Assembly (NCBI RefSeq): GCF_003991155.1
Contig: NZ_CP031296.1
Strand: one strand, 5' to 3'
DNA from: Escherichia coli
Lineage (GTDB): Bacteria > Pseudomonadota > Gammaproteobacteria > Enterobacterales > Enterobacteriaceae
Length of the DNA stretch: 60,038 bases
Shown: piece by piece, positions 3,001 to 9,000 of the stretch
Numbering within the stretch: position 1 is the first letter of the stretch
Layout: every line of letters starts with the position of its first letter
Made by a program: the position numbers

Positions 3001-6000
3001 TGTTGTGCGGCAGAAAGAAGAAAGCCCCGTAGTTAATTTTTCATTAACCCACGAGGCGATCCCAATGCTTGAACAACATCAGGATAGCCTCTTACCGCGC
3101 GTTACGCAAGGAGAAGAAGGCCATGAAACTACCGGGAAACGCCCTTATCTGGTGCGTATTAATCGTGTGCTGCACGTTGTTAATATTCACACTCCTGACC
3201 CGGAATCGCCTGTGCGAAATCCGGCTGAAGGACGGATACAGGGAGGTTACGGCAAGCATGGCTTACGAATCCGGCGGTAAGTAGCAACCCGGAGGCGGGC
3301 GAAAGCCCGCCTTTTTGGGGATGATGTGGTTCTGGCATTAAGCGCCTTTACAAAGGGGGTATTCTGTACGGATACCCCCTTTTTCCATGTATTTTCAGGA
3401 TATTAACTGGTGAATATGGTATAATTAGTCAATATGACAGCAATTATTGAGGCGAGTATGCAGCCCAAAAAAACACCCGTGATTGTGGTCAAAAAACGCC
3501 GCGTTCTGGTCATGCCAGAAAATCCTGTGGTGAATGAAAAGCCGCAGGAAGTACAAAAATCAGCAGTTAATGAAAACAAGAAAGTACAGAAGAAAGATGC
3601 TGTAGCAGAGAAAACACGTAAAAAGCAGCCTCAGCCCTGGTATTTGAAAAAACAAATCACTTTTCCCCCAAAATATCCGAAAGAATATTTTGAAAAGTGT
3701 TTCAATAAAGTTCGTGCTGTTTTTCCTGAACTATGGACAGACGAAAAAAAGAACTTGCCCCTGAAAAGCGGGATTCTCCAGGACGTTGAGAAATACCTGG
3801 CGGATAACCCGGATGTGGATCTGACGATTGAAGAGTGGAATTGTGCGGTTCAGGTGATGACGTTCCGGTGGCAATATCTTCAGAATTGTACTGTACCAGG
3901 CGCAACACGTTACGACCTTTACGGGAAACCTGCTGGTACAGTAAAAAAAGCACACGCAACTTATGCGCAACTGGTTCTCGATGCCCGTAAGAAAGCCAGC
4001 GAGAAGAAACAATTAAAACGTAAGGGATAAAGCCCCGAAGGGCTTTATCATTTCAGCCTGGCTGACTGTAGAATCCAGTGATTTTTTCCGTTTTCGTCCA
4101 GGCCGTGTTCGTAAGCTGCAAGAGCCGCTTTCATTATTGCTGTTTTTGTCTGGCCTGTTCGCAGTGCTTCCCGTTCCAGAATATCTTCGTAAACGTCCCC
4201 AAGCCGGACATTGGTCACTTTAGTTGCTCCCGATTTTTTGCGGGTAGCTTCATTGATGAATCGGGCTGTGTCTGCATTGGTTTGTTCTGTTTTTTGTCCT
4301 GGTATTACCGGAGTTTTCAAGTCAAGAGCCATTATATCACCTTTCGTGTGTTACATTAGCTTTACTGTGTAAAGTTAATGATGTAAAGCTGTCGTATTAC
4401 ATCCATTAGGGATTGATGCCTAACTCTTGCGCCAAAAGCTCTATTTGTGCTTTAGCTGTAGAAAGGCTGGATGCGCGACGTACATCATGAACGCCAGCGC
4501 CTTCATTACAGGCCGCTTCAAAAATATCTAAATCTGAAATACGTGTACGAAGTGGCTGTATCCACACCGGGTTCTCCCGGAGTAACTTGTCGAGATCAAT
4601 CGCTGCTTTTCTGTGGCGTGGTTTTGTCGTGTTAATTCTCGTGAAAAGTACCCAGGGTTGCAGGTCTGGATTGATCTGTTGAGCTGTGCGAACTTTTTCT
4701 GTTACATGAGTCAGCGTTTCTGCTTCGAAATCTGAAGACGGCTTAACGAGAGTAAGCAGAATGTCAGCTACAGTTAAGGCACTGCGAAATTCCTTGCTGT
4801 CATGCCCTGGACAGTCAATGATCAGCACTTCACATATTTTTTTCAGGCGCTTAATGACTTCTGATACATCGCCATACTCTTCATAAACAGGAACCGGTAA
4901 TAAGCCATTCTGCTTTCTTTTTTCGTTCCAGCTAAGAATATCATTGTTTTTATCGGTCTTCAGAATGATGACCGTTCGTGAATTATTTACCAGATAAGAA
5001 GCCAGGTTTGTTGCTGTGGTGCTTTTTCCTACACCGCCTTTATCTGATGCGACAAGTAATGCTCTCCCCATAGAAACCTCGGATATACAGTGTAAAGGTT
5101 TATTTGTCTTTACATTGTATTCATTATAGTTACGTTGTAAAGATGTTCGTGTCTTTACAATGTAATTGTTTTTTGCGCTTTACATTGTGTGTATGTTACA
5201 GGGTAACTTTTCAGGATGCGATTTTGCCTGGTGTGTTGTTGCGCCCGTAGCTCGCTGACGCTCACACGCGCAGTACAGCGCCCCGCCCTGCTGCAATGCA
5301 CCAGGACGGCGTAAACTCGCTGGCGCTCGCGCTAACTGCGGCATTCTGCGGCGCAAATCAGCATGATCATGGCCTGTCAGTCCGTTGGGCTTTGCAGGGT
5401 GAAGGGATGGCCCTGTGCATCCTGGTATGTTCGTCAGCGGCTGCGCCGCGCTTCGGGGCGATGTGGCCCCGCTGCTCCCTGGTATTTTCTTTCGCCCCTT
5501 CTATGCCCTGCCGGGCATTGCATGAATGTAAATATTTGTATTTAACGATATTTATTTTAAAGAAAGGAGGAAAAAATACTTGATAATAGGTCAGTTCTGA
5601 CCTATTATAAACACATCGAGAGGGGATGGTCCCCAATCACCAAAGCCGCTCAGCGGCAGGAGCTTAAAAATGGAAAACCACGCCAAATTTGTTGCTACTG
5701 AAATTCTTAATCAGCTTGGTGGAAACCGCTTTATTGCTATGACAGGCGCAAAGAACTTTGCCTGTTTTGATGAAAATGGTGAGTCTGGTCTTTGCTTTCG
5801 TTTACCTTCAAATTTTGCAATGAAGGGAATTAATTTGGTTAAAATCAAATTAACCTTCTCTGATACATACCTGGTGACATTTTCCCGTGTCTGTGGAGCT
5901 ACAGTAAAAGAAATATCAAAATTTGATAATATTTATTGTGATCAGCTTGAATGTTTATTTAATGAACAAACCGGACTTGCAACCAGATTGTAATTTTTAA

Positions 6001-9000
6001 TATGGGGGGGATTCCCCCCATATCAGGAGGATAAATGAAAGTTCTTATTGGTAATATAAATATTGATAATTATCATATGCTGTCTGCATTAGCTGGGATT
6101 GCGGGATTTGACAGGAGCATTGAGTTTACATGTGAAATATCAGCAAGTATCGAAATTATGGAGGATGATTTCGTAAATAAAGCTGGTATATTAAAGATGT
6201 TAGATGAATTTATTGAAAATGATTTTTCAATAAAGCTCGTCTAGAAAATACTTGATAATAGGTCATTTGTGACCTATTATTAATGCATTGAGAGGGGATG
6301 GTCCCCAATCGCCAAAGCCGCTCAGCGGCAGGAGTTAAACATGAAACAATCTACTTTTCCTGCTATCGTCTCTACAACTGGTCATGTGTTTTCTGTTGTG
6401 CGCGTGACGCTTTGCACAATTTGCCTTAAACATGAAAAAACAGGCGAGGCTTATGTCGTCATTTTTACAGACTGCCATAATATCCGTGATTATAAAAAAG
6501 GCGTTGTTCCGGTTCTTGGGGAGCTTTATCAGGAAGATGTCGATTTGATTACCGGAAAAAGTTAAAAGAAAGGGGCTATATGCCCCTTTACTGTTAAAAG
6601 GGGAGACTATCTCAATATGAAGATAAGAAAAGGTGACAGACAATATTATCTGAATAAAGAAGGTGATACGTTTCATCTGGTGAAGCGAGTAAAAACTTTT
6701 TCTAAGTCTGCGACTTTAGGAAAAACGAAAGCAACGGTGAAAACTGTTGCCGATCTTGTTTTTCATGAGAAGGCATTCGACACTATCGACTTTGCCAGCG
6801 ACGGATTAAGAGAGAATGATAAAGAAATTGTTTCTATGATGATTCAGGAAATGAGTGAGGGAAAAAATGCCAAATGAAAACACACCAGAAAACATTAAAC
6901 GTCTGCGGCAAAAAATTGGCCTGACACAGAAAGAATGTGCCGAAATATTTAGCATGAGTCCGCGTACCTGGCGTCGCAAAGAAGAACCTGTCGGAACTGC
7001 AAGCGGTACAGCACTTACACCAGTAGAGTTTAAATTTCTTCTGCTTTTAGCTGGAGAACACCCTGATTATGTACTTTGTAAAAGGAATAAAAAGAATTCT
7101 GATTCTGGAAGTAATTAAGGAATATTAAGATGAAAATAGAATTAACGTATGACGAAATCACGGAATAAGCTACAAAAACCATAACTGAATTTATGGCTGG
7201 ACTTAATAGCCCCAGTTGCATTGAACAATGAGCAATTGCGCCCGTAGCTCGCTGACGCTCACACGCGCAGTACAGCGCCCCGCCCTGCTGCAATGCACCA
7301 GGACGGCGTAAACTCGCTGGCGCTCGCGCTAACTGCGGCATTCTGCGGCGCAAATCAGCATGATCATGGCCTGTTGGTCTGTTCTGGCTTTGCAGGGCGA
7401 AGGGATGGCCCTGTGCATCCTGGTATGTTCGTCAGCGGCTGCGCCGCGCTTCGGGGCGATGTGGCCCCGCTGCTCCCTGGTATTTTCTTTCGCCCCTTCC
7501 ATGCCCTGTCGGGCATTACATGAATGTAACTATATGTATTTGATAGCGTTTTTTTTGAAGAATGGAGGGAAAAATACTTGATAATAGGTCAGTTCTGACC
7601 TATTATAAACACATCGGGAGGGGATGGTCCCCAACCACCAAAGCCGCTCAGCGGCAGGAGCATGAAAATGCATTTCACAACTTTTCTAAAAAAACATTTC
7701 GATATAGAAAAAGTCGTTGGTACTTCTGATTCTGGAAATGATACCGAATCTATTTATGTTTATGAAAAAGGAAATGATTGCGAACCGTTGTTTATTCTGC
7801 ATGAATCCTGGCTAAATGCAGAAATTAAAAAGTGTGGGGTATGGACTATTGGCAATATATATTCCACATTGGAACACGGAAAAGAATATTCTGAACAGGA
7901 ACTAATAAAAATGATTAAGGAGGGTAAAGTAATCAGCAAATACTAATTTGGGGTTGGTAACAGGCTGTGGGGCAGCCTGTTACCAAATGACAGATGCATC
8001 TTTGGAGATTCTCAAATGTCAGTATGTGAAATGATAGAGCTTGCAAACCGCATTGTAAATGGGGAACCTGTAAAAACACCCGCGATAGAAGCATGGATTA
8101 TTAGCGAAATCATTTGGTGGGCGCATAACCGGGATAATGCTTTAGTTTGAGTCATATATGGGGAGAGTGTCATGCTCTCCCTTTCTTATTGGGTAGCGCG
8201 TTGTATTACATAGTTAGCTTTACGTTGTAAAGATTTTATTGTCTTTACAGTGTGGTGCGTTTTCCGGCGGTTGCGCTGCGCTTAGGGGGATGTGGCCTCG
8301 CTGCTCCCTGGTATTTTCTTTCACCCTTCTATCTGATAACTTTTCTTGAAAGAGGCTGGGGTTTTATGAAACATTTAAAATATAAAGGATATTTAGGTAC
8401 AGTTGAGCCGGATTTTGAAAATAATATCCTGCATGGAAAGCTGGCATTTATTCGAGATCTGGTGACTTTTGAGGCAGAAACATTAGCTGACCTGGAACGG
8501 GAATTTAAAACATCGGTTGATTTGTATTTACAGTCCTGTGTGGAGGACGGAAAGGAGCCTGACGCGCCCTTTAAAGGTGTGTTTAACGTCAGGCTTGATC
8601 CAGAGCTAGGCACTGGAAAAAGAAGTCATTAATCATCGCGCAGGGGCTTAATCGCCCCTTTTTGTTGCTCGCTGGCGTTGGTGTTTTCTGGTATTACGAT
8701 GTAGTGTGTTGTATTTACAAGTAATGATTTACGTTGTATTACGATGTATACTCTTTAATTGCTTGCAATCTCTTTTCACGTTCGTTGCTTTGTTCAGCCT
8801 TTTTCAGTTCACTGAATATGTACTCTTCATCTTTACCCGTGAGTTTTGAACCGGAGAGCAAGCGATTAACAACTTTACGTCGAATTGTGGGGTAATCTTT
8901 GGTTTGAGCGAGTATGGACAATATGCGGTCACTGCTAAGAATCTGGCCTTTCCCTGATTCTACATAATGTAGAAAAAATGCGATTGCTGACACGCCCAAA

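What the first reader, a model, noticed from the sequence alone, without database searches (positions are those of the whole stretch)
5239..8632. Leading-region island of small ORFan genes behind ~340 bp GC-rich repeated elements (candidate ssDNA promoters, possible anti-defence cargo)
Two near-identical GC-rich elements (5239-5560 and 7236-7560) plus a partial third (8262-8340) sit directly upstream of small plus-strand genes of unknown function (5670, 6341, 7662, 8366). If nikAB enter the recipient last, this region lies on the leading side of the candidate oriT and its genes are transcribed toward oriT, the orientation expected for genes expressed from the transferred single strand. In F-like and IncI1 plasmids such regions carry Frpo-type ssDNA promoters driving early genes (ssb, psiB, ardA, anti-restriction). 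None of the ORFs here resembles those known proteins, so this may be an uncharacterised early-expression or anti-defence module.
Basis: partly seen in the sequence, partly recalled or inferred. Interest (0 to 1): 0.8.

Follow-up and report, generated by a model that had tools for sequence, protein, structure and literature searches.

The report
Priming-site-plus-promoter cassettes in plasmid leading region

Summary
The repeats are real: 5235-5529 and 7232-7527 (93-98% identical, 60-62% GC) and a remnant at 8262-8332. The window is an mcr-1 IncI2 plasmid. The elements belong to the CUP (conserved upstream repeat) family of the IncN pKM101/R46 leading region (profile E about 1e-13, same layout). 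One cargo gene is a CcgD homologue.

Each unit has three modules:
- a structured GC-rich module;
- a near-consensus sigma-70 promoter (TTGATA-17-TATTAT) containing a 26-bp palindromic operator;
- a 60-66 nt leader with two covarying hairpins, then SD-ATG.

An Xre-like protein (6867-7118) co-varies with operator type in five classes with no discordance, so it is the likely repressor.

The GC module has no similarity to Frpo or the rest of the F leading region, no -35/-10 and no Frpo-like long hairpin. It is instead a paralogue of the element 375 bp downstream of the plasmid's own ori (2111-2368), where I recall the IncFII primase "G site" lies. It also shares CTGCAAAGCC with the annotated primer start of phage G4.

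Best model (inferred): DnaG primes on the transferred strand, and synthesis runs into the promoter and genes. Expression then pulses until the repressor accumulates. Cargo functions remain unknown.

The parts
5235..5529 (-). CUP-A GC-rich module (G-site-like). The proposed active strand is the minus strand, which is the presumed transferred strand. Left domain helices: P1 5239-5248/5347-5356, P2 5267-5279/5328-5339, P3 hairpin 5281-5312. Conserved block CTGCAAAGCC lies on the minus strand at 5388-5397, with its CTG at 5395-5397. Terminal hairpin ATGCCC-TGCC-GGGCAT at 5503-5518.
   Evidence: Repeat. CUP homology. Covariation. G4 start-site identity.
5580..5608 (+). Promoter P-A: -35 TTGATA (5580-5585), 17-nt spacer, -10 TATTAT (5603-5608). 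The 26-bp palindromic operator ATAATAGGTCA-GTTC-TGACCTATTAT lies at 5583-5608.
   Evidence: Promoter scan gives 10 of 12 matches. Palindrome (I1). Operator class co-varies with the Xre-like regulator.
5609..5669 (+). Leader: hairpin GGGGA-TGG-TCCCC (5622-5634), hairpin GCCGC-TCA-GCGGC (5645-5657) abutting SD AGGAG (5658-5662).
   Evidence: Conserved length of 60-66 nt and compensatory hairpin variants across CUP types.
5670..5993 (+). ORF of 107 aa ('YahA', phrog_9437), function unknown.
   Evidence: AF2 pLDDT 91 with no PDB fold match. Only uncharacterised phage proteins match.
6035..6244 (+). ORF of 69 aa (phrog_1585), function unknown.
6245..6339 (+). Stand-alone promoter-operator-leader module (promoter 6252-6280) with no GC module.
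6341..6565 (+). ORF of 74 aa, function unknown. Homologues follow CUPs in IncX4 and in L015.
6617..6877 (+). ORF of 86 aa, function unknown.
6867..7118 (+). Xre-like HTH protein, the candidate repressor of the palindromic operators. It is the last gene of the operon.
   Evidence: NCBIfam and PHROG HTH/repressor hits. Five regulator classes match five operator classes, 28 regulators, none discordant.
7232..7527 (-). CUP-B GC-rich module (G-site-like). CTGCAAAGCC lies on the minus strand at 7386-7395.
7578..7606 (+). Promoter P-B with the same operator. The leader runs to 7667.
7668..7946 (+). CcgD homologue (49% identity to R46 CcgD).
   Evidence: tblastn 6e-29.
8016..8150 (+). Small ORF of 44 aa followed by a terminator-like hairpin at 8160-8182.
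8262..8332 (.). Remnant of a CUP right domain. It has no CTG block and no terminal hairpin, so it is probably a recombination scar.
   Evidence: plus direct reading.
8366..8632 (+). Truncated hicB (N-terminal domain only; internal deletion relative to IncX4 hicB).
   Evidence: phrog_9151 7e-36. Comparison with L004 6709-7056.
2111..2368 (-). Replicon-proximal family member, inferred to be the IncFII-type G site (primase priming signal). Its CTG is at 2250-2252 on the minus strand, about 375 bp beyond the ori, which is delimited by DnaA boxes at 1689-1697 and 1828-1836.
12723..12770 (-). Candidate oriT core: inverted repeat 12734-12770 and an RP4-like nick motif GGTATCGTG|CC read on the minus strand (12733-12723). 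This is an inference only.
   Evidence: Direct reading. Based on analogy with the RP4 layout of inverted repeat, 8 bp, then nic (from memory).

Best explanation
The island is an IncN-like 'CUP regulon' carried in the leading region of an IncI2 plasmid. Each cassette has four parts: a roughly 295-nt structured GC-rich module, an AT-rich spacer, a strong double-strand sigma-70 promoter whose spacer and -10 lie inside a palindromic operator, and a conserved 60-66 nt leader before one or more small genes.

Shown here:
- membership of the CUP family;
- the promoter, operator and leader architecture;
- one-to-one co-variation of the Xre-like protein with the operator type;
- paralogy of the GC module to the element downstream of the plasmid's own replication origin;
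- identity of its conserved block to the primer start of phage G4.

Inferred mechanism:
1. The GC module is a G4-type, DnaG-primase-dependent priming signal (G site) that is active on the minus strand, which is the transferred strand.
2. During conjugation each cassette's genes enter first, then the promoter, then the G site.
3. Once the G site is inside, primase starts at the CTG of CTGCAAAGCC.
4. DNA synthesis runs back over the promoter and genes and converts exactly that cassette to duplex.
5. The unrepressed promoter fires (zygotic induction).
6. The Xre-like repressor, encoded last in the operon, accumulates and shuts all promoters that carry its operator.

The cargo proteins are early-establishment candidates of unknown function.
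For: CUP membership. A profile of IncI2, IncX4 and L15 copies hits three R46 CUPs at 2.5e-13 to 2.3e-12 over nearly their full length, in gene-sense orientation. R46 shows the same order of parts: GC module, CCTTCCATGCCCTGnCGGGCAT hairpin, AT spacer, promoter, CATCGGGAGG leader, hairpin, SD. A CcgD homologue is present.

Promoters. The three best plus-strand sigma-70 matches in 5000-8700 are exactly the repeat promoters, and none lies in the GC modules. Of 57 distinct CUP-type elements, 56 are followed by a promoter plus SD-ATG.

Repressor. Five regulator recognition-helix classes match five operator classes across 28 regulators with none discordant. A plasmid carrying two operator types carries both regulators.

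G-site link.
- A CUP-only profile hits window 2211-2380 at 7e-8.
- A replicon-type-only profile hits the CUPs at 7e-6 and 9e-5, the R46 CUPs at 5e-6 and the IncX4 CUPs at 2e-5, with no hit in reversed decoys.
- That element lies about 375 bp downstream of the DnaA-box ori and occurs in more than 5000 plasmid records, at about 91% identity in most.
- In an IncFII+IncFIA plasmid it lies 1423-1706 from the repA start, with the DnaA box at 1034.
- All family types share CC-CTGC(A/T)AAGCC on the minus strand. G4 has CTGCAAAGCC with its annotated primer starting at the T of that CTG.
- The implied direction of synthesis is away from ori in the replicon copy and into the promoter in the CUPs.
- GC modules also occur alone, without promoters (0 of 21 L138-type), near R6K taxA and near F oriT.

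Structure. 96.4% of cells are paired against 33-44% when partners are slid; 12 pairs change on both sides; 0 of 500 shuffles reach the observed score.

Leading-region context in three other backbones.
Against: - No experiment was done, and no paper available to me links CUPs to priming.
- The identification of 2111-2368 as the R1/R100 'G site' rests on my recollection of Masai & Arai 1989 and Tanaka et al. 1994, which could not be retrieved.
- Profiles detect no significant overall similarity to G4 oric. The link is a 10-nt identity at the start site.
- Canonical IncFII has CTGCCAGACC rather than CTGCWAAGCC.
- Folding energies show no strand preference (10 of 25 clusters favour the minus strand). 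G-T asymmetry favours the minus strand at only one P3 position (12 of 24).
- One predicted plus-strand helix over the CTG block is rich in G-U pairs.
- IncI2 transfer polarity is inferred, not shown.
- The structure used for covariation was derived from the same alignment, which has only about 4 independent lineages.
- The reciprocal similarity covers only the right half of the module, about 165 nt.
Confidence: 0.55

Rival explanations
1. The GC module is an RNA-polymerase single-strand promoter of a new class (Frpo-like in function). The transferred strand folds, recreates -35/-10 and drives early transcription before second-strand synthesis.
For: - Leading-region location and orientation toward oriT in four backbones.
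- Conserved secondary structure.
- The minus-strand fold of copy A is somewhat more stable than shuffles (z -2.35, against -0.94 for the plus strand).
- New ssDNA promoter classes without sequence similarity to Frpo have recently been found (PMC12672017).
Against: - No similarity to Frpo1/2 or to the rest of the F leading region.
- No promoter-like hexamers in the module on either strand.
- TGGTATGTT, one of two extended -10-like motifs I read by eye in copy A, is not conserved in the L15 type. The other, TGGTATTTT, is kept in the IncI2, IncX4 and L15 copies but not in R46 or the Pantoea copy.
- The consensus structure is multi-branched, not one long hairpin.
- No strand bias across 25 clusters.
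- A canonical operator-controlled promoter already sits 60-66 nt from each start codon.
- The same module occurs beside replication origins and alone, without genes.
Confidence: 0.12
2. The GC module has no single-strand function. It is a duplex-level element: a binding platform for a second regulator (as ArdR is thought to be in IncN), an insulator against H-NS or read-through, or simply homology that lets cassettes be shuffled by recombination.
For: - Cassette number varies from 2 to 7 per plasmid, and hybrid copies exist, for example L017 8758-9200 with an L15-type GC module and an IncI2-type promoter.
- The remnant at 8262-8332 looks like a recombination scar.
- The literature treats CUPs as promoter plus ArdK/ArdR sites (PMC6289460, PMC5371602, PMC6294495).
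Against: - Compensatory base changes maintain helices. This is not expected for a duplex protein site or for mere homology.
- The module is conserved next to replication origins in thousands of plasmids that have no cassettes.
- Its orientation relative to the promoter is fixed (56 of 57).
- No ArdR or ArdK homologue is present in the window.
Confidence: 0.2
3. The module works as RNA on the plus strand, within read-through transcripts from the upstream operon. It could be a processing, stability or attenuation element.
For: - No terminator is predicted between the Xre gene stop (7118) and CUP-B, so read-through is likely.
- One plus-strand helix around 5375-5405 uses many G-U pairs that would be C-A mismatches on the other strand.
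Against: - No Rfam family matches, even at a permissive threshold.
- No U-run follows any hairpin on the plus strand.
- Copies beside ori and oriT are not in transcription units.
- The first copy (5235) follows a divergent parA-like gene, so it has no upstream plus-strand operon.
Confidence: 0.08

Closest known systems
CUP (conserved upstream repeat) elements and the CUP-controlled regulon of the IncN pKM101/R46 leading region (Delver & Belogurov 1997, J Mol Biol 271:13; cited in PMC6289460, PMC5371602, PMC6294495)
   Same: - Significant full-length profile similarity.
- Same module order: GC-rich part, CCTTCCATGCCCTGnCGGGCAT hairpin, AT spacer, sigma-70 promoter, CATCGGGAGG leader, hairpin, SD.
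- Several copies in one orientation in the leading region.
- Shared cargo (ccgD here; ccgAII in related plasmids).
- Variable cassette number.
   Different: - About 70% or less identity to the IncN copies.
- The promoter carries a long perfect palindrome absent from IncN CUPs.
- No ArdK or ArdR is present. An Xre-like protein that co-varies with the operator takes that role.
- The hosts are IncI2, IncX4 and an F-like plasmid, where I found no published description of CUPs.
Primase-dependent priming signals (G sites, G4-type ssi) of phage G4 and of IncFII plasmids R1/R100 (Masai & Arai 1989; Tanaka et al. 1994; both recalled from memory, not retrievable here)
   Same: - Paralogy to the element about 375 bp downstream of this plasmid's ori.
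- Shared CTGCAAAGCC with the annotated G4 primer start.
- Conserved blocks separated by a variable middle.
- Hairpin-rich single strand.
- The implied direction of synthesis fits both contexts.
   Different: - The link to published G sites was not verified against the papers.
- No overall similarity to G4 oric.
- Here the module is fused to a promoter and repeated in the leading region, a use I found no description of in the papers I could search.
Frpo/ssi class 1 and class 2/3 single-strand promoters of F and IncI1 (Masai & Arai 1997; Couturier 2023, PMC9849209; PMC12672017)
   Same: GC-rich elements of about 300 nt, repeated, upstream of leading-region operons transcribed toward oriT. Thought to give early, transient expression.
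   Different: No sequence similarity, no -35/-10 in a long stem and no long single hairpin. A conventional duplex promoter with an operator is present.
Zygotic-induction control of establishment genes by a plasmid repressor (for example the regulation of establishment genes studied in PMC6294495, and KorA/KorB in IncP)
   Same: A strong promoter is silenced by a plasmid-encoded repressor and is therefore transiently active on entry into a repressor-free cell.
   Different: The repressor and operator families differ. Here the promoter is coupled to an upstream structured module.

Membership tests
CUP elements (IncN leading region) | Sequence homology to pKM101/R46 CUP repeats | tested here: met
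   nhmmer gives E 2.5e-13, 8.9e-13 and 2.3e-12 to three R46 CUPs over hmm positions 36-402. The alignment shows shared blocks.
CUP elements (IncN leading region) | Repeated upstream of leading-region operons, all in one orientation toward oriT | tested here: met
   Two full copies plus a remnant, all on the plus strand with plus-strand genes. The same arrangement next to F-like oriT and IncX4 taxA/taxC. IncI2 polarity itself is inferred.
CUP elements (IncN leading region) | Contains a promoter for the downstream operon | tested here: met
   A 10-of-12 sigma-70 match sits 60-66 nt from the start codon in each copy. Activity was not measured.
CUP elements (IncN leading region) | ArdK binding site and regulation by ArdK/ArdR | tested here: not met
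   No ArdK or ArdR homologue found by tblastn in the window or in related loci. The operator is a different palindrome that co-varies with an Xre-like protein.
Plasmid G site (primase-dependent ssi) | Homology to the element downstream of IncFII-type oriR | tested here: met
   Reciprocal profile hits of 7e-8 and 7e-6/9e-5, with decoys clean. That this element is the published G site is recalled from memory, not verified.
Plasmid G site (primase-dependent ssi) | CTG start trinucleotide in a conserved context shared with G4 oric | tested here: met
   CTGCAAAGCC on the minus strand at 5388-5397 and 7386-7395 is identical to G4 3996-4005, which spans the annotated primer start.
Plasmid G site (primase-dependent ssi) | Primer synthesis by DnaG plus SSB on the single strand, or ssi activity in an M13-delta-ori assay | not testable with these tools
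   Needs biochemistry or a phage plaque assay.
Frpo / class 1-3 single-strand promoters | Sequence similarity to known Frpo/ssi1-3 or to F class 2/3 homologues | tested here: not met
   blastn best E 0.07 against F 52000-67500. No profile hit to the Frpo regions.
Frpo / class 1-3 single-strand promoters | Long stem-loop on the transferred strand that reconstitutes -35 and -10 boxes | tested here: not met
   The consensus structure is multi-branched. No hexamer pair lies in the module. No strand bias in folding energy.
Frpo / class 1-3 single-strand promoters | Transcription from ssDNA before conversion, switched off in duplex form | not testable with these tools
   Needs RNA-seq or 5' RACE on early transconjugants.

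The most novel reading that the evidence does not exclude
CUP cassettes are a second solution to early expression from transferred DNA, distinct from Frpo. A host-primase priming site is hard-wired just upstream of a conventional repressible promoter. Local second-strand synthesis then licenses that promoter within moments of entry, and a cassette-encoded Xre repressor ends the pulse. 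The priming module would be the same one plasmids use downstream of their vegetative origins. It has been duplicated into the leading regions of IncN, IncI2, IncX4 and some F-like plasmids, including both main mcr-1 vectors.
Probability: 0.45. Interest if true: 0.8.

Novelty: new variant of a known kind. Interest (0 to 1): 0.62.

Why it matters
IncI2 and IncX4 are the main vehicles of mcr-1 colistin resistance, and this window carries mcr-1. They share these cassettes at about 93% identity. Current surveys find leading-region control elements by BLAST against Frpo, so they would miss this whole family, which occurs in more than 1500 plasmid records for the IncI2/IncX4 type and more than 2000 for the IncN type.

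If the GC module is a priming site coupled to a promoter, three things follow:
- It explains what the long-unexplained part of CUP repeats, roughly 300 bp, is for.
- It links vegetative-origin G sites to conjugative establishment.
- It gives a testable route by which plasmids lacking Frpo obtain early expression.

The regulator-operator pairs are also a ready set of orthogonal repressor systems. The small cargo proteins are candidates for establishment or anti-defence functions.

Tried and rejected
- Frpo homology: blastn and profiles against F 52000-67500 gave nothing.
- Rfam: only sok was found in the window. Nothing matched the GC module, even at E up to 5.
- Protein-coding reading of the GC module: rejected, because copies differ by 1-4 nt indels and lose the ATG.
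- IS or MITE: no terminal inverted repeats or transposase, and the element has a fixed orientation.
- A genome-contig scan with a 20-mer returned mostly chance hits. Only one useful divergent copy came out of it (L015).
- Strand assignment by folding energy and by G-T/A-C asymmetry was inconclusive.
- Overall similarity to G4 oric by profile was not significant.
- The Tanaka 1994 paper could not be retrieved, and full-text searches found no G-site sequence data.
- The exact RP4 nick motif ATCCTG is absent from 12400-12850. Only a one-mismatch variant lies on the minus strand next to the inverted repeat.
- ORF5670 has no Pfam, NCBIfam or PADLOC hit, and its confident model has no PDB neighbour.
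- NCBIfam named no primase among the six large ORFs tested. Two of them, the 1437-aa relaxase and a 652-aa ORF, had no match at all, so a plasmid primase is not excluded.

Full report
**What is there.** The window is essentially a whole IncI2 plasmid. It is 99% identical to E. coli IncI2/MOBP/MPF_T plasmids and carries mcr-1 at 18792-20417.

The reported repeats are real. 5239-5386 matches 7236-7383 at 98%, and 5388-5672 matches 7386-7670 at 93%. A partial third copy lies at about 8267-8332. These blocks are 60-62% GC against about 30-45% in the flanks.

A 95-nt segment occurs three times (5573-5667, 6245-6339, 7571-7665). It contains:
- the three best plus-strand sigma-70 matches in the region, TTGATA-17 nt-TATTAT;
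- a 26-bp palindrome, ATAATAGGTCA-nnnn-TGACCTATTAT, that spans each promoter's spacer and -10;
- a leader with two hairpins, then AGGAG and ATG.

The gene at 6341 has only this module in front of it. The copy before 8366 is a scar, and it precedes a truncated hicB.

**Family.** The GC module recurs in more than 1500 plasmid records. It is 93% identical in IncX4 and about 80% identical in a second sequence type (L15). That type is found in IncI2-like plasmids with up to 7 copies and in an F-like plasmid.

A profile built from these copies hits the CUP repeats of IncN R46 at E 2.5e-13 to 2.3e-12 over nearly their full length, in gene-sense orientation. R46 CUPs have the same order of parts. The window ORF 7668-7946 is 49% identical to R46 CcgD.

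These are therefore CUP elements, first described for the pKM101/R46 leading region (Delver & Belogurov 1997, as cited in PMC6289460, PMC5371602 and PMC6294495). One of those papers notes that the function of the more than 400-bp repeats 'has not been studied in detail'. I found no paper describing CUPs in IncI2, IncX4 or F-like plasmids.

**Leading-region context.**
- In the F-like plasmid the cassettes lie beside DUF932-SLT-oriT-traM and point toward oriT. F polarity is established.
- In IncX4 they precede hicAB-taxA-taxC.
- In R46 they lie in the published leading region.
- In the window, oriT should lie near 12.7 kb, upstream of mobC and the relaxase.
- An inverted repeat at 12734-12770 is followed on the minus strand by GGTATCGTG|CC. 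This is a one-mismatch RP4-like nick motif, 9 nt from the repeat. The reading is by analogy only.
- Relaxase genes normally enter last (PMC11541004).

The minus strand is therefore the likely transferred strand, and it is the template for the island's genes.

**Not Frpo.** There is no similarity to F Frpo1/2 or to anything else in F 52000-67500. That stretch includes the regions upstream of klcA and the methylase, where the published class 2 and class 3 single-strand promoters lie.

No -35/-10 pair lies inside the GC module on either strand. Two extended -10-like motifs that I saw by eye behave differently. TGGTATGTT is lost in the L15 type. TGGTATTTT is kept in the IncI2, IncX4 and L15 copies but not in R46 or the Pantoea copy.

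The minus strand of copy A folds slightly better than shuffles (z -2.35, against -0.94 for the plus strand). Across 25 sequence clusters, however, the minus strand is the more stable one in only 10. The consensus structure is multi-branched rather than one long hairpin.

**Conserved structure.** On a 10-sequence alignment of IncI2, IncX4, L15, Pantoea and R46 copies:
- 96.4% of cells pair, against 33-44% when partners are slid;
- 12 pairs show changes on both sides;
- the covariation score is 0.284 against 0.157 in shuffles, and 0 of 500 shuffles reach it.

Clear compensatory cases are the P3 hairpin (U-A, A-U, C-G), P2 (A-U to G-C) and the terminal hairpin (ATGCCC/GGGCAT against ATCCGC/GCGGAT). 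Two caveats apply. There are only about four independent lineages, and the structure was derived from the same alignment.

Strand-diagnostic wobble pairs are few. One P3 position is G-T on the minus strand in 12 of 24 sequences. One plus-strand helix over the CTG block uses G-U pairs. The folding strand is not settled by this evidence.

**Link to priming sites.** A metagenome scan for two conserved blocks returned 120 loci. It yielded 146 elements in 25 clusters. All share the right half, and they have three or four different left halves.

One type is the element at window 2111-2368. The same element occurs in more than 5000 plasmid records, at about 91% identity in most of them. In an IncFII+IncFIA plasmid whose record starts at repA, it lies at 1423-1706, with the DnaA box at 1034.

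In the window, DnaA boxes at 1689-1697 and 1828-1836 delimit the ori. The family's conserved CTG lies about 375 bp beyond it.

From memory, this is where leading-strand synthesis of R1 is primed by primase alone, at the 'G site' (Masai & Arai 1989). Also from memory, plasmid G sites share three conserved blocks separated by variable sequence (Tanaka et al. 1994). Those papers could not be retrieved.

Three points are verified with tools:
- A CUP-only profile finds this element at 7e-8. A profile built only from replicon-type copies finds the window CUPs (7e-6, 9e-5), the R46 CUPs (5e-6) and the IncX4 CUPs (2e-5) in the same orientation. It finds nothing in reversed decoys.
- Every family type carries CC-CTGC(A/T)AAGCC on the minus strand. 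Phage G4 has CTGCAAAGCC exactly where GenBank annotates the primer start, at the T of that CTG.
- The strand this implies makes synthesis run away from ori in the replicon copy, as expected for unidirectional IncFII replication. In the CUPs it runs into the promoter and genes.

Family members also stand alone without promoters (0 of 21 L138-type). Examples lie between R6K taxA and its leading genes (E 3e-31) and near F oriT. This argues for a DNA-level function that does not depend on transcription.

**Repressor.** The last gene of the middle operon (6867-7118) encodes an Xre-type HTH protein. Its recognition-helix region falls into five classes across the collected loci:
- SMSPR..RR with operator TAGGTCA;
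- GVGLR..QK with TACGAC;
- GVGLS..QK with CATCTA;
- FGFT..AWQAKE with ACCATCA;
- FGLSLRSWQDKE with TACACGT.

This covers 28 regulators with none discordant. One plasmid with two operator types encodes both regulators, each in an operon driven by its own operator type. Many loci are near-duplicates, so the effective sample is five classes. A perfect matching is still unlikely by chance (1 in 120). No ArdK or ArdR homologue is present.

**Leader.** The distance from the -10 to the start codon is 60-66 nt in all but one of the 54 CUP-type copies measured (that one is 55 nt). The hairpin abutting the SD changes by compensation: GCCGC/GCGGC, GCCC/GGGC, GTCC/GGAC, GGCC/GGCC, GCCG/CGGC.

**Cargo.**

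| ORF | Size | Result |
|---|---|---|
| 5670 | 107 aa ('YahA', phrog_9437) | 259 homologues, no Pfam domain; confident model (pLDDT 91); no PDB neighbour (best E 0.087); only uncharacterised phage proteins match |
| 6035 | 69 aa | phrog_1585, unknown function |
| 6341, 6617, 8016 | 74, 86, 44 aa | no informative hit |

PADLOC gives nothing, but it models defence systems, not anti-defence proteins. An anti-defence role is therefore neither supported nor excluded.

**Model.** Shown: CUP membership, the modular architecture, regulator-operator co-variation, paralogy to the ori-proximal element, and identity with the G4 start site.

Inferred: during transfer each cassette's genes and promoter enter before its GC module. 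The module folds on the transferred strand. DnaG starts at the CTG. Synthesis converts the promoter and genes to duplex. The unrepressed promoter fires, and the Xre-like repressor then closes the regulon.

This agrees with recent evidence that second-strand conversion is discontinuous and follows entry order (bioRxiv 10.64898/2026.01.09.698686). I put about 0.95 on CUP membership, 0.8 on the repressor assignment, 0.8 on homology to the replicon priming element, and about 0.5 on the CUP modules acting as priming sites in recipients.

**Verdict.** The element is a new variant of a known kind, and the proposed mechanism is specific and testable.

Noticed in passing
window 18792-20417 (+): MCR-1 phosphoethanolamine transferase (NF000465, 1303 bits), so the window is an mcr-1 IncI2 plasmid. 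topB lies at 22283-24448 (-), VirD4 at 40578-42548 (-) and VirB4 at 46422-48779 (-).
   Followed up: partly
window 4357-4377, 5071-5188, 8206-8253, 9212-9259, 9351-9398: Repeated inverted-repeat units CTTTACA/TGTAAAG. Three sit between the parA-like gene (4406-5071, minus strand) and CUP-A, and others flank the island. They look like sites for one partition or global regulator protein.
   Followed up: no
window 12531-12687 and 12723-12770: Roughly 11-12 nt periodic GTGGGT repeats lie next to the candidate oriT. An inverted repeat at 12734-12770 is followed on the minus strand by the RP4-like motif GGTATCGTG|CC.
   Followed up: partly
window, whole: The hexamer ATCCTG occurs 53 times against 28 +/- 5 in dinucleotide-preserving shuffles (maximum 40). 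This is unexplained.
   Followed up: no
window 2954-3125 (+); repeats 2788-2912 and 2985-3109: A sok antitoxin RNA (Rfam RF01794, 98 bits) with a hok ORF, and a 125-nt direct repeat at 89% identity around it.
   Followed up: no
L005 13393-13516 (F plasmid about 65392-65515); L018 11461-11592: F and an F-like plasmid carry a right-half member of the same element family between ygeB (DUF932) and orf169/SLT, a few hundred bp from oriT and oriented toward it. It is not one of the published Frpo/ssp promoters.
   Followed up: partly
L145 (R6K) 22780-23090 (+); L004 (IncX4) 7090-7252 (-); L020 6824-6950 (-): IncX plasmids and a Pantoea plasmid carry a stand-alone family member between the leading genes (after hicB) and taxA, in the opposite orientation to those genes. 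In R6K this is roughly where I recall ori alpha to lie.
   Followed up: partly
L002 and L003 4001-4060: A 54-60 nt fragment of the CUP right end (about 90% identity) sits in the colicin B/M-colicin V region of large IncF plasmids, probably as a recombination relic.
   Followed up: partly
L018 (NZ_CP025919.1) 3200-9400: A 50-kb IncFII/MPF_F plasmid has four CUP cassettes (J-domain protein, RelE/ParE TA, CcgAII homologue, Xre-like regulator) in the stretch of the leading region fetched, where F carries ssb, psiB and the Frpo elements. No ssb or psiB is annotated in that stretch.
   Followed up: partly
window 8366-8632 vs L004 6709-7056: The hicB-like gene in the island has an internal deletion that removes the C-terminal DNA-binding part, and it lacks a hicA partner. 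An intact hicAB pair lies at 9479-10123.
   Followed up: partly
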